A stretch of DNA of 64,000 nucleotides from an uncultured Bifidobacterium sp. (GTDB lineage Bacteria; Bacteroidota; Bacteroidia; UKL13-3): assembly GCA_964442045.1 (NCBI GenBank), contig CAYTWI010000002.1:26509-90508 (forward strand), in the 5' to 3' direction. Positions 51,811-57,188 of this stretch are shown in pieces (positions within the stretch are counted from its first letter, which is position 1; each line of letters begins with the position of its first letter). A model generated the notes under the pieces. The model was not told the origin of the DNA. It saw nothing but the letters and a program-made list of their open reading frames with translations, and searched no databases. The translations under genes and the position numbers were made by a program.

Positions 51811-52116
51811 ATGCAAAAAATTAAATTCGATCATATATTAATTGGTGTTCTTATAGGTTTATTAGCCCCTTCGCTGGGTATTATTATATTTTACTTCAGT
51901 AAGTTTGAGGGCAGCAGCCTGGAGTTATTCATTACCACTTCGGTACAGGAAAAGCTCTTGTCGCCCCTATTGAGTTTATGTGCTGTTATTAACCTGGCGG
52001 TATTTTATTTAATTATACAGTTTGAAAAATACCAAACTGCAAAAGGCGTTATATTAGCCACTTTCCTATACGGATTAGCAATTGTTTTATTAAAATTTGG
52101 AATTGTAAGTTTGTAA
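51811..52116 (+). CDS. Membrane hypothetical protein
   Basis: Three hydrophobic segments; ATG at 51811 directly after the surE stop is preferred over 51775. Confidence 0.65.
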   Translation: MQKIKFDHILIGVLIGLLAPSLGIIIFYFSKFEGSSLELFITTSVQEKLLSPLLSLCAVINLAVFYLIIQFEKYQTAKGVILATFLYGLAIVLLKFGIVSL

Positions 52117-52126
52117 AATATATTTG
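52096..52126 (+). promoter_or_regulatory. Bacteroidota sigmaA-type promoter for tRNA-Ala
   Basis: -33 TTTG (52096-52099), 19-nt spacer, -7 TATATTTG (52119-52126). Confidence 0.65.
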
Positions 52127-52165: not shown

Positions 52166-52241
<76 letters not shown>

Positions 52242-52242
<1 letters not shown>

Positions 52243-52276
52243 ATAATGCCCCGGTTGTTTAGACCGGGGCATTATT
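52242..52276 (+). terminator. Hairpin after tRNA-Ala
   Basis: 14-bp arms AATAATGCCCCGGT / ACCGGGGCATTATT. Confidence 0.65.
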
Positions 52277-52389
52277 ATTTATAGCACAAGGGTAAGCAAA
52301 GCTTACTAAGGTGTGCTATTAATAATAATGCATCCTTTGCGTATGCAAAAGGCATTCATTGTTAGGTTCACCAAACAGGAAAAAGTATT

Positions 52390-52406
52390 AATCCGATATC
52401 CTCCAC
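52390..52406 (+). mobile_element. att-like direct repeat of the tRNA-Ala 3' end
   Basis: AATCCGATATCCTCCAC identical to 52224-52240. Confidence 0.75.
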
Positions 52407-52410
52407 ACTC

Positions 52411-52440
52411 AAAGGTTTCAATAGTACTATTGAAACCTTT
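52411..52440. terminator. Perfect 30-bp palindrome following the att-like repeat
   Basis: AAAGGTTTCAATAGTACTATTGAAACCTTT followed by a T-run. Confidence 0.65.
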
Positions 52441-52583: not shown

Positions 52584-52591
52584 GTTAGGTG
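52584..52591 (+). mobile_element. Integron-like core site (GTTRRRY)
   Basis: GTTAGGTG, 24 bp upstream of the first cassette ATG; reverse complement of CACCTAAC at 56009-56016. Confidence 0.55.
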
Positions 52592-52615
52592 TAAGCAAAA
52601 ATACAAACTGAAAGA

Positions 52616-53524
52616 ATGAATAAGAAATTAAAATGCTATATCTCGACTGACTCTAGTAACGACTTATCAAAAGTTGAAATTTTACTACATAACTTAAATG
52701 TTGACACGAATAATTTCTATGATTTTTCAATAGGTTCGTCTTTTTCAGATTTGATTAAGCGAAAAATTAGAGAATCGGATTTTATACTAGCCTTAATCAC
52801 AAAAAATAATCAAAATGTTTTGTTTGAACTAGGAGTCGCAGAAGCGCTTGGCAAACCAATTTTTTTATTGGTAGATCAAGATTTAAAACTCCCCTTTTTT
52901 CTCGAAGGTAAAATGCATTATCAATTGGATTGGTCAAAAAACACACAACTGTTGGAACTCTCTCTGAAAAATTACATATTAGATATTAGTAATCCCTATA
53001 GACGTTATAAGAAAAAAACGCAAAAAGAAAAACCGAATCTTACAATCGATGAGACGAATAAGGCGCTTGTTAGTCTAAGACAATTTAGGAAAGGTGATTA
53101 TAAAGAATATGATTTAATTAATGTTATAATGGATGTTTTTAAAAAGATAAACGTTCAAGCTGTTTCGGAATTGGCCATAGGAGACAAATCAAGAGTAGAT
53201 ATCGCAATTACAAATGAAGGTTTATCAAGTTACTTTGGAAATCCTTTGCTAATAGAGGTTAAGTATGGAAGAATAGATAAGGAAACAATTGATAGAGCTC
53301 AACAACAACTTCAAAATTACATAAGTAAAACAGATGCTAATTTTGGAATTTTGCTCTATTTCGACAAAAATGATAGACGATTTAATTTAGACACTCCCAG
53401 ATTACCAAACATATTAATGTTTGACGTTGAAGACTTTGTTCAAGGTATTTCATCTGAGGGGTTTGAAAATTTCTTAATAAAAAAGAGAAATGAGTATGTA
53501 CATACTTTAAATAATCTAAGTTAG
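52616..53524 (+). CDS. NDT/TIR-like domain fused to PD-(D/E)xK restriction-endonuclease-like domain
   Basis: N-term IRESDFILALIT..NQNVLFELGVAEALGKPIFLL; C-term SRVDIAI...LLIEVKYG...AQQQLQNY...FGILLY. Confidence 0.75.
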   Translation: MNKKLKCYISTDSSNDLSKVEILLHNLNVDTNNFYDFSIGSSFSDLIKRKIRESDFILALITKNNQNVLFELGVAEALGKPIFLLVDQDLKLPFFLEGKMHYQLDWSKNTQLLELSLKNYILDISNPYRRYKKKTQKEKPNLTIDETNKALVSLRQFRKGDYKEYDLINVIMDVFKKINVQAVSELAIGDKSRVDIAITNEGLSSYFGNPLLIEVKYGRIDKETIDRAQQQLQNYISKTDANFGILLYFDKNDRRFNLDTPRLPNILMFDVEDFVQGISSEGFENFLIKKRNEYVHTLNNLS

Positions 53525-53525
53525 T

Positions 53526-54059
53526 ATGCCTAAATATAGCCAAACAAAAATAAGGCAGCTACTAAATCAATCTGATGCTGGAAATACTCATGTGAAAGGA
53601 AGAGTTTTTGAAGATTTAGTACTTTATTTATTTGAAAAATTCAATGGTGTTCGTTTAGCAGATAGAAATGTATTAGATGCAACAGGTTCTCAAGAAATAG
53701 ATTTAGCGCTTTGGAACAATAGGGTTATTGGGCCATTTGATATCCTTGACCCAATAGTAATTTGCGAATGTAAAAATGAAGTTCCCCCTTTAAGTAGCGC
53801 AAAAGTCCGTGAATTTGTACATAAGTTAAGGACAAGGGGGGCGAAATCAGGAATCCTTGTGTCATCTAGCGGTATTGCTGGTCAATTAAATGGTTACAGA
53901 TATGCAAACTCTGTAATAATGGATGCTTTGTCCATTGATGGTATTAAAATAATTGCTATCGATAGAGACGACATTTTATCATACGCGAACACTAATGATA
54001 TGTTTAATGATATTACAGAAAAATATTTGAAATTGACAATTAGAAGAACGATGGATTAA
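53526..54059 (+). CDS. Mrr-like (type IV-like) restriction endonuclease domain protein
   Basis: KGRVFEDLV, QEIDLAL, ICECKN, KVREF..KL, GILVSSSG. Confidence 0.8.
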   Translation: MPKYSQTKIRQLLNQSDAGNTHVKGRVFEDLVLYLFEKFNGVRLADRNVLDATGSQEIDLALWNNRVIGPFDILDPIVICECKNEVPPLSSAKVREFVHKLRTRGAKSGILVSSSGIAGQLNGYRYANSVIMDALSIDGIKIIAIDRDDILSYANTNDMFNDITEKYLKLTIRRTMD

Positions 54060-54089
54060 GCTATTTCATGACAAATTAAGAACAAAAAT

Positions 54090-56000
54090 ATGAGCACAAA
54101 ACAAATAGCACTTTTTGATGATAGATTTTTAGAATCATTTGTTGGAAAAGGAATTATCTCCGATTCTAAAATTGCAATCATTGAGCTAATAGCAAACTCA
54201 TGGGATGCTGCAGCAACAAAGGTTGAAATAAAGTGGCCATTAGAAGACGGGGACAATTTTTCAATTATTGACAATGGTCACGGAATGACCGAATCACAAT
54301 TTAATAAAAGATTTCGAACTTTAGCTTATGATAGAAACAAAGAGCAGGGTGGATATGCAGAGGTACCACAAGACCACAAATCACTAATTGGGAAAAGACC
54401 AACTTTCGGTAGAAATGGTAAAGGTAGATTATCTGGTTTTGCTTTCGGGGAATTTTTCCAAGTGAAAAGCTGGAGAGATACAAAGCAAATACATTATAAA
54501 GTATTTGCTGACAATACTAATATCTTAGCGTTTGAAAAATTAGGTGAAGAAAAAAAGGAACATCACGGAACAGAAATATTCGTTAATAATGCAATCAAAC
54601 CAAGTACTAGTTTTGATCAAATAAAAATTGAAATTGGAATGCGATTTATGACGGATCCTCATTTTGAAGTAATCGTTAACAATGAAAAAATTACATTTTT
54701 GGACATACCAGAAGAAAATATCAATAACATCGAAGTTGAAATTGATGGCATTGGAAAAATACCTATTACAGTAATTGATGTTAAAGGAACAGATAAGACA
54801 ACTCATCAACATGGTATTGCTTGGCATGTAAAAAACAGACTCGTTGGCGAATGTACTTGGAAAGGTAGTGGAAACGAACATTTGATTGATGGTAGAAGAA
54901 TTGCCGCAAAACGATATATTTTTATAGTAAAAGCAGACTGTTTAGAAAATGCTGTTTCTCCGGATTGGACAACATTTTTTCAAACAGACGAAAAATTCAA
55001 GAAGGTATTTCCTGCAGTTCAAGAAAAAATCAAAGATTATATTTTAGAACTTTACAAGGAAAATAGAGAAACAACATTTAAAGAAATTGAGGAAATTACC
55101 AAACCGATATTGAAAAACATTGGACTTGTTGGTCGAGAGAAATGGGAAACATTTATAACCAATGTTCAAGAAGAATGTCCTTCAATTACTCAAAATGATT
55201 TAGAAAAGGTTGCTAAACTTTTAGCTAATCTTGAACAAAGCGAATCAAAATATAACCTAATTGCCATATTGTCTAATTCAACATCAGAGGAATTAGAAAG
55301 TTTGAATACTGTTTTAAAAAAATGGAATATAAATTTAGCAAAAGTTGTACTTGACGAGGTAGAATATAGAATGAGACTAATTGAAAAATTACAAAGTAGA
55401 GTACTGACTAATTTAACAGACGAAGTTCATGATTTACAACCTTTATTTCACAGAGGTTTATGGATATTTGGTCCTGAGTATGAAACAATCGAATACACAT
55501 CAAATGTTGGTATGACAAAGGTTATACAAGATTTATTTGGAAAAGAAATAAAGGGTACGCGTATAAGACCTGACTTTGCAATCTTGAAAGATAGTTCGGT
55601 TGGTCTTTACAGTTTTCCAAAATATGATGACGAAGGAGGGGAAATAGGAATTGATAGGCTAACAATTGTTGAGCTTAAAAAGCCAGGAGTGCCGCTTGGA
55701 CTTGATGAGGTAAATCAATCCTGGAAATATGTTAGTGAATTATTAAATAAGGGATTAATTAAAAACTATTCTAAGGTGACATGTTTTGTTTTAGGTTCTG
55801 AGCTAGTGCCTTATGAAACGGAGAAGACAACGAAAATGAATGGCAATGTTATTATTCAGCCACTAGCCTACGATACCATTATGAGACGTGCAAAGAGCCG
55901 CCTTCTAAACTTGTTTGACAAGGTTAAGACTGCGCCATACTTAGAAGACACAAGAATTAAAGAATATTTGCGTGAAAAGGAACAGTCAGAATTATTTTAA
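54090..56000 (+). CDS. GHKL (HATPase_c/MORC-like) ATPase fused to C-terminal PD-(D/E)xK nuclease (Shedu/DUF4263-like)
   Basis: AIIELIANSWDA, DNGHGM, GRNGKGR, HGTEI; C-term LQPLFHRGLWIFGPEY, RPDF, IVELKKP, NQSWKY. Confidence 0.8.
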   Translation: MSTKQIALFDDRFLESFVGKGIISDSKIAIIELIANSWDAAATKVEIKWPLEDGDNFSIIDNGHGMTESQFNKRFRTLAYDRNKEQGGYAEVPQDHKSLIGKRPTFGRNGKGRLSGFAFGEFFQVKSWRDTKQIHYKVFADNTNILAFEKLGEEKKEHHGTEIFVNNAIKPSTSFDQIKIEIGMRFMTDPHFEVIVNNEKITFLDIPEENINNIEVEIDGIGKIPITVIDVKGTDKTTHQHGIAWHVKNRLVGECTWKGSGNEHLIDGRRIAAKRYIFIVKADCLENAVSPDWTTFFQTDEKFKKVFPAVQEKIKDYILELYKENRETTFKEIEEITKPILKNIGLVGREKWETFITNVQEECPSITQNDLEKVAKLLANLEQSESKYNLIAILSNSTSEELESLNTVLKKWNINLAKVVLDEVEYRMRLIEKLQSRVLTNLTDEVHDLQPLFHRGLWIFGPEYETIEYTSNVGMTKVIQDLFGKEIKGTRIRPDFAILKDSSVGLYSFPKYDDEGGEIGIDRLTIVELKKPGVPLGLDEVNQSWKYVSELLNKGLIKNYSKVTCFVLGSELVPYETEKTTKMNGNVIIQPLAYDTIMRRAKSRLLNLFDKVKTAPYLEDTRIKEYLREKEQSELF

Positions 56001-56003
56001 TTT

Positions 56004-56064
56004 GCCAGCACCTAACAGCAACTACAAGAAATTGGCGCTTCAGTGGTTAAATGAAGTTTTGTGC
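56004..56064 (+). mobile_element. Truncated attC-like site (inverse core RYYYAAC plus left arm)
   Basis: GCCAGCACCTAACAGCAACTACAAGAAATTGGCG...GTGGTTAAATGAAGTTTTGTGC starting 4 bp after the stop codon; complementary right arm not found. Confidence 0.55.
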
Positions 56065-56097
56065 CTTATACCCACCCTTCTCAAGCCTCACACAAAC

Positions 56098-56129
56098 AAA
56101 AAGCCCTTGTAGTACTACAAGGGCTTTTT
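56098..56129. terminator. Perfect 32-bp palindrome / bidirectional terminator
   Basis: AAAAAGCCCTTGTAGTACTACAAGGGCTTTTT between convergent genes. Confidence 0.75.
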
Positions 56130-56156
56130 TGTTAATTAATTACTACAATCATATTC

Positions 56157-56858
56157 TTAAGGTGTAACAGGCGGTTCTTCCGAAGGACTTGGGTTCTCGT
56201 TATCAACCTCCAACAAACTAAAGTTAAAGTAACTGTTAAAAGCAGCTTCGTTACCTATGGTACGGGCAGCTATAAGCAGTACACAAGTGGTTAAATGCTC
56301 GGTTAATGCTTTTCGGTTTTGTTGCATTTCGGTTTGTGCCGTTTTTTTGCTGGATTTAGATGATACCTGTGTATCCCTTGCATCTACATAAGCGGTTTGT
56401 AATGTACCCAAAGTGCGCACAAAGTCGGTTGATAAGAGGGCTTTGTATTTGTCGGCAGTGGCACTGTACCTGAATAGCAATACTTTTATGCCCTCTACCG
56501 TAGCACCATAATACTCCCGGAGCCCCTGCGGGTAAAACTCGATGTAAATGGGTGTGTTTTTACCAAACTTAGATTTAATGGCACCTTCTTCGCGCGAAAT
56601 AAATTCTAAAATGGCATCGTAAGCATCTTGTCGGCTAAGGGTACCACCCTTTTGTATGGCACTGCTAATGGCCAGCGTACCAAAGGTGTTTACAAAGGCC
56701 TCGTGTAAATCAATCAGCAGCGTTTTATCGGCTGCGGGTAATAAGGAGTTTTGCATGCTGCTTAATCGGCTAATTAAGTCGGTAGCAAACAGGTTGAGTT
56801 CGTTTCGGCTAAAGTTGTTACTGCCGAATAAATTTCTGGTGAATCGTGCGTAATTCAT
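56157..56858 (-). CDS. Hypothetical protein (predicted helical)
   Basis: 233-aa ORF, visibly more GC-rich than neighbours; C-terminal YFNFSLL plus an acidic/Pro tail. Confidence 0.75.
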   Translation of the reverse strand: MNYARFTRNLFGSNNFSRNELNLFATDLISRLSSMQNSLLPAADKTLLIDLHEAFVNTFGTLAISSAIQKGGTLSRQDAYDAILEFISREEGAIKSKFGKNTPIYIEFYPQGLREYYGATVEGIKVLLFRYSATADKYKALLSTDFVRTLGTLQTAYVDARDTQVSSKSSKKTAQTEMQQNRKALTEHLTTCVLLIAARTIGNEAAFNSYFNFSLLEVDNENPSPSEEPPVTP

Positions 56859-56894
56859 ATCGGTAAGTTTTTTAGTAACTAAACGTAGGCTGAA

Positions 56895-57188
56895 TTATTT
56901 TTAGTATACCCTAAAAACAGAAAGTGCATGTAAAAATTATTTTACATACTCCCTCAAAAATGAGGGCGTATATAAAAACTATTTTTAGTACACCATAGAA
57001 AATGAGGGACTATGAAAAAACTATTTTACCTACTCCCTCAAAAACGAGGGAGTATATAAAAACTATTTTTAGTACACCCTAAAAATTAGAGGTGCATATA
57101 AAACATGTTTTGGGTACATGTTAGAAACTGAACATATAGTTAAAACATGTTTTTGGTATAGTCCCAAAATGCGGAATGCCGGTAAAAA
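56895..57188. repeat. Array of 7 x 42-bp imperfect palindromic units
   Basis: Units start at 56895, 56937, 56979, 57021, 57063, 57105, 57147; units 2 and 4 share 38/42 nt; stops in all six frames. Confidence 0.85.

What the first reader, a model, noticed from the sequence alone, without database searches (positions are those of the whole stretch)
52616..56000. Candidate new anti-phage system: three PD-(D/E)xK nucleases with NDT/TIR-like and GHKL modules, no methyltransferase
Seen: three co-oriented genes with 1-bp and 30-bp gaps, AT-rich (two spot-counted 60-bp lines gave 27-28% GC versus 35% for one line of korA), beside a tRNA hotspot. Each encodes a restriction-endonuclease fold: VDIAI/IEVK/QQQLQNY; EIDL/CECK; RPDF/VELKKP/NQSWKY. 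Gene 1 adds an NDT/TIR-like domain (NVLFELG..EALGKP), and gene 3 adds an intact GHKL ATPase. No DNA methyltransferase, specificity subunit or helicase is adjacent. Known: GHKL/MORC ATPases pair with REases in restriction systems; Mrr-type enzymes cut modified DNA without a cognate MTase; TIR/NDT domains act in nucleotide-based immunity. Inference: a modification-dependent restriction or abortive-infection system in which a nucleotide-processing domain and an ATPase clamp gate nucleases. I do not recognise this combination as a named system.
Basis: partly seen in the sequence, partly recalled or inferred. Interest (0 to 1): 0.9.

Follow-up and report, generated by a model that had tools for sequence, protein, structure and literature searches.

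The report
Two defence modules fused in one cassette
The three genes are real and probably defend against phages, but they are two independent modules (a known GHKL-ATPase "Shedu" nuclease, and an unnamed, strictly conserved pair of a TIR/NDT-like nuclease and an Mrr-type nuclease) that travel together here in one integron-type gene cassette.

Summary
There are three co-oriented ORFs (52616-53524, 53526-54059, 54090-56000) with 1-bp and 30-bp gaps. Their GC is 32.0% against 35.5% for the window, and every quoted motif is present.

The interpretation as one new three-gene system is not supported.
- **Gene 3** is a GHKL ATPase with an S5-like middle domain and a C-terminal PD-(D/E)xK nuclease. 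This is the published paraMORC3 / type I-D Shedu architecture, validated as a single-gene defence (VcSduA). Of 74 genomic loci holding a homolog, 73 lack genes 1-2.
- **Genes 1 and 2** form a strictly conserved pair. All roughly 28 independent loci keep them adjacent, down to about 20-25% identity. Gene 1 is a TIR/NDT-like domain fused to a nuclease, and gene 2 is a minimal Mrr-type nuclease. The gene 1 family has at least 476 clusters at 50% identity. No PADLOC or NCBIfam model or searched paper names the pair.

Elsewhere, genes 1-2 alone and gene 3 alone are each bounded by attC-like sites. Here, and in one unrelated contig, the whole 3,481-bp block is a single cassette, apparently a fusion.

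One puzzle remains. A very divergent copy of the pair in a Bacteroidales genome also has a divergent GHKL-nuclease cassette next to it.

The parts
52166..52242 (+). tRNA-Ala (anticodon GGC). It is the only tRNA in the window and lies 374 bp upstream of g1.
   Evidence: ARAGORN. A Bacteroidetes-type promoter motif lies at 52096-52126.
52390..52406 (+). 17-bp exact direct repeat of the tRNA-Ala 3' end (52224-52240). It is followed by a terminator-like hairpin at 52411-52440. I read it as the scar of an earlier integration at the tRNA.
   Evidence: 2 matches against 0.06 expected by chance. Hairpin.
52584..56064 (+). 3,481-bp block shared at 96.4% nucleotide identity with contig CAZGVO010000008.1 (L001), whose flanks are otherwise unrelated. 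It holds g1, g2 and g3 and behaves as one mobile cassette.
   Evidence: blastn. In L001 the block lies between two attC-like hairpin sites.
52584..52590 (+). GTTAGGT, an attC R'-type core (GTTRRRY), sitting exactly at the left end of the shared block.
   Evidence: Sequence. The equivalent GTTAGCT in L001 ends an attC-like hairpin. GTTAGGC cores bound g1-g2 cassettes in L122 and L131.
52616..53524 (+). g1, 302 aa. An N-terminal TIR/NDT(DNPH1)-like N-glycosidase-type domain (aa 1-125, nt 52616-52990) is joined by a helical linker to a PD-(D/E)xK nuclease (aa ~160-270, nt 53093-53425; D195, E214-x-K216, QxxxY). The C-terminal tail carries an invariant R291-N-x3-H296-G.
   Evidence: Pfam. Alignment. 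AF2 model with pLDDT 82.8. Foldseek hits: SfSTING TIR 1e-6, NDT 5e-5, DNPH1 8e-5. E72 aligns with the YELG Glu of Rcl/DNPH1.
53526..54059 (+). g2, 177 aa. A minimal Mrr-type restriction-fold nuclease (E29, D59, E81-C-K83) with no N-terminal DNA-reading domain. It is the obligate partner of g1.
   Evidence: Pfam Mrr_cat above threshold. Invariant residues. Adjacent to g1 in every locus examined.
54090..56000 (+). g3, 636 aa. A GHKL ATPase (aa 1-~200) with an S5-like plus helical middle region (aa ~200-460) and a C-terminal PD-(D/E)xK nuclease (aa ~460-615; GLWIFGPEYE, R493-P-D495, E528-L-K530). This is the paraMORC3 / type I-D Shedu architecture.
   Evidence: Pfam 5.7e-18. AF2 model. Foldseek hits to Hsp90/TRAP1, MORC2-4 and MutL at ~1e-13. 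SduA_C is the only recurrent Pfam hit on homolog C-termini. Literature.
54060..54089 (+). 30-bp g2-g3 spacer with no hairpin and no attC. This is where an attC would be expected if g1-g2 and g3 were still separate cassettes. 'ATTAAGAACAA' resembles the GTTAGGAACAA start of the g3-only cassette in L002.
   Evidence: Sequence. The fold shows no structure. The resemblance to L002 is inference.
56008..56064 (+). First half only of the cassette's 3' attC-like site (CCTAAC core plus left arm). Homology to L001 stops at 56064 and the partner arm is missing, so the cassette is probably fixed in place here.
   Evidence: The remnant does not fold (z = +1.6), whereas the L001 copy folds as an attC-type hairpin.
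56098..56129 (.). Bidirectional terminator-like hairpin shared by g3 and the convergent 233-aa ORF (56157-56858, - strand, no family hit).
   Evidence: for the ORF.

Best explanation
The block 52584-56064 is one integron-type gene cassette that carries two autonomous anti-phage modules. It most likely arose by fusion of two neighbouring cassettes through loss of the attC site between them.

**Module B (g3).** g3 is a GHKL-ATPase Shedu (paraMORC3 / type I-D Shedu). It is a single protein, presumably a GHKL-type dimer. Its ATPase and clamp-like middle domain control a C-terminal PD-(D/E)xK nuclease that cuts invading DNA directly. The architecture and its autonomy are shown here. The mechanism is inferred from the validated homolog-type VcSduA.

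**Module A (g1-g2).** This is a strictly conserved, translationally coupled pair, and I take it to be a separate, so far unnamed defence system. My preferred mechanism is all inference:
1. g1 and g2 form a complex.
2. Their intact restriction-fold domains bind and cut phage DNA.
3. DNA-dependent assembly switches on the N-terminal TIR/NDT-like N-glycosidase of g1.
4. That domain most likely hydrolyses NAD+, like the TIR effectors of TIR-STING, Cap12 and PycTIR, giving abortive infection.

In the window the cassette lies next to a tRNA-Ala integration scar. It has lost half of its 3' attC, so it is probably fixed in place.
For: **Autonomy of g3.**
- 74 genomic loci across Bacteroidota, Planctomycetota, Acidobacteriota, Chloroflexota and archaea hold a homolog. 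Only the 96%-identical twin L001 has g1/g2.
- The neighbours are highly variable and no partner is conserved.

**Identity of g3.**
- GHKL motifs and the E-D-ExK nuclease motifs are invariant.
- Its fold matches Hsp90, MORC and MutL GHKL-plus-transducer modules.
- SduA_C (PF14082) is the only Pfam family recurring on the C-termini of homologs: 4 of 13 (best 1.5e-5) and 10 of 59 at E <= 0.01.
- The literature describes exactly this architecture as paraMORC3 (PMC2292703) and as type I-D Shedu (10.1101/2023.08.10.552793).
- VcSduA protects as a single gene, and its E27A and K557A mutants are dead (PMC12137116).

**The g1-g2 pair.**
- g2 lies from a 50-bp overlap to 17 bp downstream of g1 in every independent locus with downstream sequence, about 28 in all. 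This holds down to about 20-25% g1 identity, in Bacteroidota, Ignavibacteriota and alphaproteobacterial plasmids.
- g1 and g2 were found on contigs of matching lengths, apparently the same ones.
- In L204 and L205 the pair sits alone among housekeeping genes.
- Elsewhere its neighbours are defence genes: AbiH, Hachiman-like, SoFic, U49/Lit peptidase, Abi_C, a PD-T4-6-type kinase, SIR2 and TIR.

**Cassette structure.**
- g1-g2 alone is bounded by textbook attC sites (GCCTAAC...GTTAGGC) in L122 and L131. g3 alone is bounded by attC-like sites in L002.
- Bottom strands fold as R-box, unpaired spacer, L-box hairpins, with z from -2.6 to -6.8.
- The window and L001 share only 52584-56064.
- There is no attC in the g2-g3 spacer.
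Against: - A very divergent g1-g2 pair in L087 is also followed by a divergent GHKL-nuclease (hhalign prob 82%, E 1e-5). That is 2 of about 23 contexts, more than I would expect if neighbours were random. In L087, however, an attC-like site separates the pair from the GHKL gene.
- The window's own g3 gives no SduA_C hit, and all homolog hits are below Pfam's threshold. Homology to canonical Shedu is therefore indirect.
- No direct comparison with the VcSduA sequence was possible.
- No integron integrase was looked for or found.
- The attC calls rest on inspection and folding, not on a calibrated attC model. My own crude scanner could not separate real sequence from shuffles.
- Nothing here shows that g1 and g2 interact. 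Nothing shows what the N-terminal domain hydrolyses, or that either module protects against phage.
Confidence: 0.72

Rival explanations
1. **One integrated three-gene system.** The GHKL ATPase clamp (g3) and the TIR/NDT-like domain (g1) jointly gate the three nucleases, and all three genes are needed.
For: - The genes are co-oriented, with 1-bp and 30-bp gaps and no attC or terminator between them.
- The whole block moved as a unit between two unrelated contigs.
- A second, very divergent trio exists in L087.
- Other ATPases (AAA_15, AAA_13) are fused to or adjacent to some g1 relatives, so ATPase partners may be a theme.
Against: - 73 of 74 g3 loci lack g1-g2.
- About 22 g1-g2 loci with readable downstream DNA lack any GHKL gene. 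Two of them sit among housekeeping genes.
- Each module occurs as its own attC-bounded cassette.
- In L087 an attC-like site separates the pair from the GHKL gene.
- The GHKL-Shedu architecture works as a single gene in V. cholerae. It sits there beside an independent two-gene system, GrwAB, and the authors showed the two to be independent.
Confidence: 0.1
2. **g1-g2 is a modification-dependent (type IV-like) restriction module.** The NDT/DNPH1-like domain of g1 is a nucleotide or DNA N-glycosidase. It acts on hypermodified pyrimidines (hmU or hmC type) of phage nucleotides or DNA. The two nucleases then cut the damaged or modified DNA. The host is spared because its DNA is unmodified.
For: - The best Pfam hit of g1 is Nuc_deoxyrib_tr (1.6e-5). 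It is above threshold in a relative (31.5 bits).
- The SDF..NVLFELG..GKP stretch aligns residue for residue with the ADVV..GYELG..GKP stretch of Rcl/DNPH1. From my own knowledge, not tested here, that stretch holds the catalytic Glu.
- Foldseek hits include DNPH1 bound to 5hmdUMP and the (hm)CMP glycosidases BcmB/MilB.
- g2 is Mrr-type, the classic methyltransferase-less, modification-dependent nuclease family.
- No methyltransferase is nearby.
Against: - The top structural matches are TIR domains of NADase effectors (SfSTING 1e-6; SPARTA). The best PDB profile hit is a TIR domain.
- The beta1 'CYIS..D' signature and the PF10137/PycTIR hits favour the TIR-like clade.
- g2 lacks the N-terminal modified-DNA reader of Mrr.
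- Nothing indicates substrate specificity.
Confidence: 0.2
3. **g1-g2 is an addiction (toxin-antitoxin-like) pair, not a defence system.** It would stabilise cassette arrays or islands, as TA cassettes do in sedentary integrons.
For: - It is a small, tightly coupled two-gene operon.
- It is frequent in attC-bounded cassettes.
- Both products are potentially toxic enzymes.
Against: - Both proteins keep intact catalytic motifs, and neither looks like an antitoxin: there is no DNA-binding repressor or small neutraliser.
- The pair also sits outside arrays among housekeeping genes.
- Relatives gain sensor-type inserts, such as HEAT repeats and a wHTH domain, which is typical of immune proteins.
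Confidence: 0.06

Closest known systems
VcSduA / type I-D (GHKL) Shedu, earlier called paraMORC3 (PMC12137116; bioRxiv 10.1101/2023.08.10.552793; PMC2292703)
   Same: - g3 has the same three-part architecture: an N-terminal GHKL ATPase with all motifs, an Hsp90/MORC-like middle domain, and a C-terminal PD-(D/E)xK nuclease with E-D-ExK.
- It is about 640 aa and stand-alone, with patchy lateral distribution that includes Bacteroidota.
- The catalytic Glu (E32 against E27 in VcSduA) and Lys (K530 against K557) lie at similar positions.
   Different: - The window's own copy gives no Pfam SduA_C hit. Only a minority of family members hit it, and all do so below threshold.
- Sequence identity to VcSduA could not be measured.
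- Here the gene is welded into a cassette with another module.
GrwAB + VcSduA island (VSP-II of WASA Vibrio cholerae)
   Same: A two-gene, methyltransferase-less nuclease module lies directly beside a GHKL-Shedu gene. In V. cholerae the two were shown to be independent and rarely co-occur elsewhere, which is the same pattern found here.
   Different: GrwAB are DUF262/GmrSD-type proteins and are unrelated to g1-g2. That island is not an integron cassette.
TIR NADase effectors of the 'TIR-like' clade (TIR-STING, CBASS Cap12, Pycsar PycTIR; Pfam PF10137)
   Same: - The g1 N-domain fold is closest to the SfSTING TIR domain (Foldseek 1e-6).
- It shares the NV(L/I)FE(L)G..G(K/R)P motif.
- Both are effector-sized domains fused to a second domain that could drive oligomerisation.
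   Different: - No cyclic-nucleotide sensor (STING or SAVED) and no cyclase gene is present.
- The fused domain is an apparently active restriction-fold nuclease.
- All hits are below family thresholds.
Nucleoside 2-deoxyribosyltransferase / DNPH1 (Rcl) N-glycosidases (Pfam PF05014)
   Same: The best Pfam match of g1 is to this family. The D...E-L-G...K-P stretch aligns with DNPH1/Rcl, including the Glu that (from my own knowledge) is its catalytic nucleophile.
   Different: - The match is below threshold for the window's protein (25.5 bits against 28.8).
- It covers only aa 50-91.
- g1 lacks the phosphate-binding glycine-rich loop after beta1.
Mrr / type IV modification-dependent restriction enzymes
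   Same: g2 has the Mrr_cat catalytic domain with intact E-D-ExK, and no methyltransferase is present.
   Different: g2 is only the catalytic core (177 aa), without the N-terminal winged-helix reader of Mrr. It never occurs without g1.
Thoeris (ThsB TIR + ThsA effector)
   Same: A two-gene module that includes a TIR-type protein.
   Different: - No ThsA-type SIR2, Macro or SLOG sensor-effector is present.
- No PADLOC Thoeris model hits either gene.
- g1 fuses the TIR-like domain to a nuclease, and g2 has no recognisable ligand-binding domain.
BbrUII/HgiDII-family type II restriction enzymes (NCBIfam NF050001)
   Same: An N-terminal GHKL module fused to a restriction-type protein, which is also the best NCBIfam and PADLOC REase_II hit of g3.
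   Different: - The match is only 97 bits against a cut-off of 550.
- It covers only the GHKL region (aa 30-205).
- No cognate methyltransferase is present.
Integron gene cassettes that encode phage defence (for example bioRxiv 10.1101/2024.07.02.601719)
   Same: Promoter-poor, same-orientation genes are bounded by attC-type imperfect inverted repeats with RYYYAAC/GTTRRRY cores, and the cargo is defence genes.
   Different: - At 3.5 kb and three genes, this is large for a cassette.
- The hosts are Bacteroidota-type genomes.
- In the window the cassette lies outside any visible array, next to a tRNA, with a truncated attC.
- No integron integrase was identified.

Membership tests
Shedu, type I-D (GHKL N-terminal domain) | C-terminal Shedu nuclease domain (Pfam SduA_C / DUF4263, PF14082) | tested here: inconclusive
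   - The window's g3 C-terminus gives no hit, even at E <= 10.
- Homologs hit it in 4 of 13 cases (best 1.5e-5) and in 10 of 59 at E <= 0.01. It is the only recurrent family, but every hit is below the 27-bit cut-off.
- There is no sequence hit to solved structures.
Shedu, type I-D (GHKL N-terminal domain) | Intact PD-(D/E)xK catalytic residues | tested here: met
   E/E in GLWIFGPEYE, R493-P-D495 and E528-L-K530 are invariant over 59 sequences down to 32% identity.
Shedu, type I-D (GHKL N-terminal domain) | N-terminal GHKL ATPase with Bergerat motifs, plus an Hsp90/MORC-like middle domain | tested here: met
   HATPase_c_3 at 5.7e-18. E32, N36, D61xGxG and G107-G112 are invariant. Foldseek matches Hsp90/TRAP1, MORC2-4 and MutL N-terminal plus middle domains at 2e-13 to 1e-11.
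Shedu, type I-D (GHKL N-terminal domain) | Works as a single gene with no conserved partner | tested here: met
   No neighbour family is shared across the 74 loci, and 73 of them lack g1-g2. Function itself was not testable.
paraMORC3 (Iyer, Abhiman & Aravind 2008) | GHKL + S5 module with an extra conserved C-terminal restriction-fold domain bearing E-D-ExK. Sporadic distribution that includes Bacteroidetes, often stand-alone. | tested here: met
   Architecture and motifs. Distribution. Published description.
BbrUII/HgiDII type II restriction-modification | Full-length match to NF050001 and an adjacent cognate DNA methyltransferase | tested here: not met
   97.3 bits against a cut-off of 550, over aa 30-205 only. 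No methyltransferase ORF lies next to the block.
Thoeris | ThsB-type TIR protein plus a ThsA effector (SIR2, or TM/Macro-SLOG) | tested here: not met
   PADLOC gives no Thoeris model for g1 or g2. g2 is Mrr_cat only.
Mrr-type (type IV) restriction enzyme | Mrr_cat catalytic domain | tested here: met
   g2 scores 26.5 bits against a cut-off of 21. E29, D59 and E81-x-K83 are invariant.
Mrr-type (type IV) restriction enzyme | N-terminal winged-helix domain that reads modified DNA, in a single-polypeptide enzyme | tested here: not met
   g2 is 177 aa and the catalytic domain starts at aa ~23. It is always paired with g1 (and others).
TIR / NDT-like N-glycosidase superfamily (g1 N-domain) | Flavodoxin-like TIR/NDT fold with a conserved acidic catalytic residue | tested here: met
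   - AF2 model with pLDDT 82.8.
- Foldseek probability 1.0 to SfSTING-TIR, NDT, DNPH1 and SPARTA-TIR.
- E72 (Asp in a few members) sits in an otherwise invariant N67..G73..K80 motif and aligns to the YELG Glu of Rcl.
- Which sub-family it belongs to, NADase or nucleotide glycosidase, is unresolved.
Integron gene cassette | Bounded by attC sites: RYYYAAC/GTTRRRY cores, with an imperfect hairpin in the bottom strand | tested here: inconclusive
   - Met by inspection and folding in L001 (both ends), L122, L131, L002 and L085, with z from -2.6 to -6.8.
- In the window only the left core GTTAGGT and half of the right attC remain.
- No calibrated attC model was available, and my own scanner was not specific.
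Integron gene cassette | An integron integrase (IntI) and attI upstream of the array | not tested
   No ORF in the 21.9 kb held for L001 was assessed as a candidate; its ORFs were only listed by coordinates and not classified. The window and the larger contigs were not searched for IntI.

The most novel reading that the evidence does not exclude
The TIR/NDT-like-nuclease plus minimal-Mrr pair (g1-g2) is a widespread anti-phage system that has not been described. In it, an N-glycosidase domain is wired directly to two restriction-fold nucleases. That domain would be either a DNA-triggered NADase or an enzyme attacking modified phage nucleotides or DNA. The pair would also preferentially team up with GHKL-Shedu nucleases, having been brought together at least twice, in the window/L001 and in L087.
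Probability: 0.35. Interest if true: 0.7.

Novelty: new variant of a known kind. Interest (0 to 1): 0.5.

Why it matters
If the reading is right, the headline three-nuclease system dissolves into one already known defence type and one new candidate.

The useful product is that candidate. It is a compact pair of about 1.45 kb, kept together in every locus examined. The gene 1 family has at least 476 clusters at 50% identity, and the pair carries no name in PADLOC, NCBIfam or the literature I could search. It would add a new way of coupling a TIR/NDT-type N-glycosidase to DNA recognition.

The locus also gives a clean natural example of two integron-type defence cassettes fusing into one mobile unit in Bacteroidota-type genomes. 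That is one way multi-gene defence loci could be assembled. It also warns that tight spacing inside a cassette is not evidence of a functional unit.

Tried and rejected
- **Profile search of the g3 C-terminus against PDB sequences.** It found nothing, so the nuclease fold of g3 rests on motifs, predicted secondary structure and the weak SduA_C hits. Full-length Foldseek was dominated by the GHKL module. I had no way to crop the model and no prediction jobs left.
- **Home-made attC scanners.** The first versions missed even textbook sites. The relaxed version found as many hits in shuffled sequence, 4-14. I dropped it and relied on inspection plus folding of specific sites.
- **Supplementary tables of PMC12137116.** I hoped to find the VcSduA sequence or its homolog list, but Table 7 is truncated in the held copy.
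- **The 636-aa gene after the Sphingomonas plasmid g1-g2 pair.** It looked like a second g3 by size but is a HAD-type hydrolase protein.
- **Phage origin of g1.** There are no relatives in IMG/VR viral contigs.
- **Strain comparison for an empty site.** The 233-aa neighbour is not on record, and the only other contig carrying the same SurE ends before the tRNA.
- **HEPN reading of the g1 C-terminal RNxxxH motif.** There is no HEPN family hit and too few helices, so it stays unexplained.
- **Sigma-70 promoter scan.** It was uninformative, with 15 hits against 19 expected.

Full report
**1. What is there**

The three ORFs exist exactly as described:
- g1: 52616..53524, 302 aa
- g2: 53526..54059, 177 aa
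- g3: 54090..56000, 636 aa

All three are on the + strand, with gaps of 1 bp and 30 bp. The region has 32.0% GC against 35.5% for the window, which puts it in the lowest 1% of same-size sliding windows. g1 alone is 29.6%.

A single tRNA-Ala(GGC) lies at 52166..52242. Its last 17 bases recur at 52390..52406, where 0.06 matches are expected by chance. A hairpin terminator follows at 52411..52440. This looks like an old integration scar. One tRNA is not a 'hotspot' of several.

**2. Domains**

*g2.* It matches Mrr_cat above Pfam's threshold (26.5 bits against 21). E29, D59 and E81-C-K83 are invariant in 22 homologs.

*g3, N-terminal and middle parts.*
- It has a GHKL ATPase (HATPase_c_3 5.7e-18). 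E32, N36, D61xGxG and G107-G112 are invariant.
- The AF2 model (pLDDT 77.9) matches the N-terminal plus middle modules of Hsp90/TRAP1, MORC2/3/4 and MutL, at E of 2e-13 to 1e-11.

*g3, C-terminal part.*
- The last 200 residues keep GLWIFGPEYE, R-P-D and E-L-K invariant across 59 sequences down to 32% identity.
- The predicted strand and helix order fits a restriction-endonuclease core.
- The window's own copy hits no nuclease family.
- On homologs, the Shedu nuclease domain SduA_C is the only family that recurs: 4 of 13 (best 1.5e-5) and 10 of 59 at E <= 0.01. All hits are below threshold.

*g1, N-terminal domain.* The model has pLDDT 82.8.
- It matches TIR domains (SfSTING 1e-6; SPARTA) and NDT/DNPH1 glycosidases (5e-5 to 1e-3).
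- The profile's best PDB sequence hit is a Hydra TIR (2e-4), followed by Rcl/DNPH1.
- The stretch SDF..NVLFELG..GKP aligns with ADVV..GYELG..GKP of Rcl. This places g1 E72 on the Glu that, to my knowledge, is the catalytic nucleophile of that family.

*g1, C-terminal half.* It has an alpha-beta-beta-beta-alpha-beta order. D195 is invariant and E214-x-K216 nearly so. Hits to PDDEXK_3 and HSDR_N_2 are weak.

**3. Do the three genes belong together?**

*From the g3 side.* A genome scan returned 74 loci from Bacteroidota, Planctomycetota, Acidobacteriota, Chloroflexota, Pseudomonadota and archaea.
- Only L001, which is 99% identical in protein, has g1 and g2.
- Clustering of all neighbours found no conserved partner.
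- Homologs also sit on Rhizobium and Agrobacterium plasmids.

*From the g1 side.* Every locus with a full-length g1 relative and readable downstream DNA has a g2 relative next to it. The spacing runs from a 50-bp overlap to a 17-bp gap.
- 8 genomes
- about 8 metagenome contigs
- 10 further contigs, down to 25% identity
- 2 alphaproteobacterial plasmid types, at 20% identity for g1 and 34% for g2

g1 and g2 relatives were found on contigs of matching lengths, apparently the same ones. An exhaustive HMM search shows the g1 family is large: 476 representatives of 50%-identity clusters at E <= 1e-30.

In about 22 of these loci the gene after g2 is something else:
- a PD-T4-6-type kinase
- a Hachiman-like DUF1837 plus helicase pair
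- Abi_C
- a U49/Lit peptidase
- a TIR_2 protein
- DUF3800
- a HAD hydrolase
- plain housekeeping genes

In L204 and L205 the pair sits alone among metabolic genes. g1-g2 and g3 are therefore each self-sufficient units.

**4. The exception**

In L087, a Bacteroidales MAG, a distant pair (35% and 40% identity) is followed on the same strand by a 675-aa protein.
- That protein has a GHKL domain (5.9e-5).
- Its C-terminus aligns with the g3-family nuclease profile (hhalign probability 82%, E 1e-5, including RPD...E-F-K...Q..Y).
- tblastn with g3 does not detect it.

So a trio of this kind exists twice, in very different sequence versions. Between g2 and this gene, however, lies an attC-like site ending in GTTAGGC. 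They are neighbouring cassettes there, not one operon. Two of about 23 contexts is more than I would expect from random neighbours. Defence genes do cluster, so I cannot decide between coincidence and a preferred partnership.

**5. How the block moves**

- The window and L001 share only 52584..56064 (3,481 bp, 96.4%). Their flanks are unrelated.
- In L001 the block lies between two imperfect inverted repeats of about 130 nt. These have AAC/GTT cores, and their bottom strands fold as attC-type hairpins: a paired R box, a short unpaired spacer, then an L-box stem with bulges.
- The same repeat family separates same-orientation genes in L094.
- g1-g2 alone is bounded by textbook sites (GCCTAAC...GTTAGGC) in L122 and L131. 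g3 alone is bounded by such sites in L002.
- In the window the block starts precisely at GTTAGGT (52584-52590). It ends inside the first half of its 3' site (56008-56064), which no longer folds.
- The 30-bp g2-g3 spacer has no hairpin.

My inference is that two adjacent cassettes lost the attC between them and became one cassette. That cassette reached this chromosome and was then fixed by truncation of its attC. No integrase was identified, and no calibrated attC model was available. This part is well grounded but not proven.

**6. Comparison with what is known**

*g3.* Its architecture is the one Iyer et al. called paraMORC3. They describe a GHKL plus S5 module with a C-terminal restriction-fold domain bearing E-D-ExK, prevalent in proteobacteria and Bacteroidetes, and often stand-alone (PMC2292703).
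- Gu et al. place HATPase_c_3-bearing proteins in type I-D Shedu.
- Adams et al. showed that VcSduA protects E. coli and V. cholerae as a single gene. Both the ATPase Glu and the nuclease Lys are needed.
- In the same island, the neighbouring two-gene GrwAB is an independent system (PMC12137116).
- The weaker match to BbrUII/HgiDII restriction enzymes covers only the GHKL part and fails the family cut-off.

*g1-g2.* PADLOC and NCBIfam give no named system, and literature searches found no description. Relatives of g1 show typical immune-protein plasticity: HEAT repeats or a CBM48 between the two domains, or an N-terminal wHTH or AAA_15 ATPase.

**7. Mechanism**

*g3.* I adopt the published model: an ATP-driven GHKL dimer or clamp licenses its own nuclease on foreign DNA, restricting it directly.

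*g1-g2.* I commit to a complex whose restriction-fold domains engage invading DNA. That engagement switches on the N-terminal N-glycosidase, most likely as an NADase, causing abortive infection. I give that specific mechanism about 0.35. The main alternative, at about 0.2, is a modification-dependent restriction module in which the DNPH1/NDT-like domain attacks modified nucleotides or bases. None of this is shown by the data here.

An invariant R291-N-x3-H296-G at the C-terminus of g1 resembles a HEPN motif and remains unexplained.

**8. Verdict**

The domains and the defence role hold. A single new three-gene system does not.
- What is new is the unnamed g1-g2 pair and the fused-cassette arrangement. 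g3 is a new member of a known kind.

Noticed in passing
window 52224-52240 and 52390-52406 (with hairpins at 52243-52390 and 52411-52440): An exact 17-bp direct repeat of the tRNA-Ala 3' end lies only about 150 bp downstream of the tRNA. Several hairpins and another GTTAGGT (about 52361) lie between the two copies. It looks like the remnant of an element that once integrated at the tRNA.
   Followed up: partly
L087 9455-9592 and 9660-11687 (JAXLTR010000004.1, Bacteroidales MAG): A divergent GHKL plus PD-(D/E)xK protein (675 aa) lies directly after a divergent g1-g2 pair, separated from it by an attC-like site. This is a second, independent-looking instance of the trio.
   Followed up: partly
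g1 residues 291-297 (window 53486-53506): An invariant R-N-x3-H-G sits at the C-terminal helix of the whole g1 family. It resembles a HEPN Rx4-6H motif, but no HEPN fold or family hit supports that reading.
   Followed up: partly
proteins P0287, P0293, P0307, P0362, P0366, P0256, P0274, P0365: Some g1-family variants carry HEAT repeats or a CBM48 module inserted between the TIR-like and nuclease domains. Others have an N-terminal winged-helix (Trans_reg_C) or AAA_15/AAA_21 ATPase fusion. These suggest interchangeable sensor parts.
   Followed up: no
L001 6633-7362: A tandem array of about 17 copies of a 42-bp unit (TATGCATTACATCATCATG...) lies upstream of the cassette, in the contig that shares the block. 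Its nature is unknown.
   Followed up: no
L001 2797-3174: Two tandem copies of a 189-bp unit, each flanked by a CGCCCTnnAGGGCG palindrome.
   Followed up: no
L094 14922-15206 (Cyclobacteriaceae MAG): A short ORF runs into an attC-like site whose loop is 93% identical to the attC after g3 in L001. The same attC family is therefore shared between different genomes' cassette arrays.
   Followed up: partly
L003 11900-11960 (Chryseobacterium kimseyorum) and L048 650-700: g3-only copies in other genomes are also followed by half or degenerate attC-like sites (GCCTAACAG...). Fossilised single cassettes therefore seem common in isolate genomes.
   Followed up: partly
window 56157-56858 (- strand): A 233-aa ORF convergent with g3 has no hit in Pfam, PADLOC or NCBIfam and is not on record as an exact protein. 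It lies in a stretch (56001-57000) that is locally GC-richer, at 40%.
   Followed up: partly
L191 6972-9793 and L200 9877-13379: Hachiman-like gene pairs (DUF1837 plus DEAD/ResIII helicase) lie close to g1-g2 in two unrelated loci, one a metagenome contig and the other an Agrobacterium plasmid.
   Followed up: no
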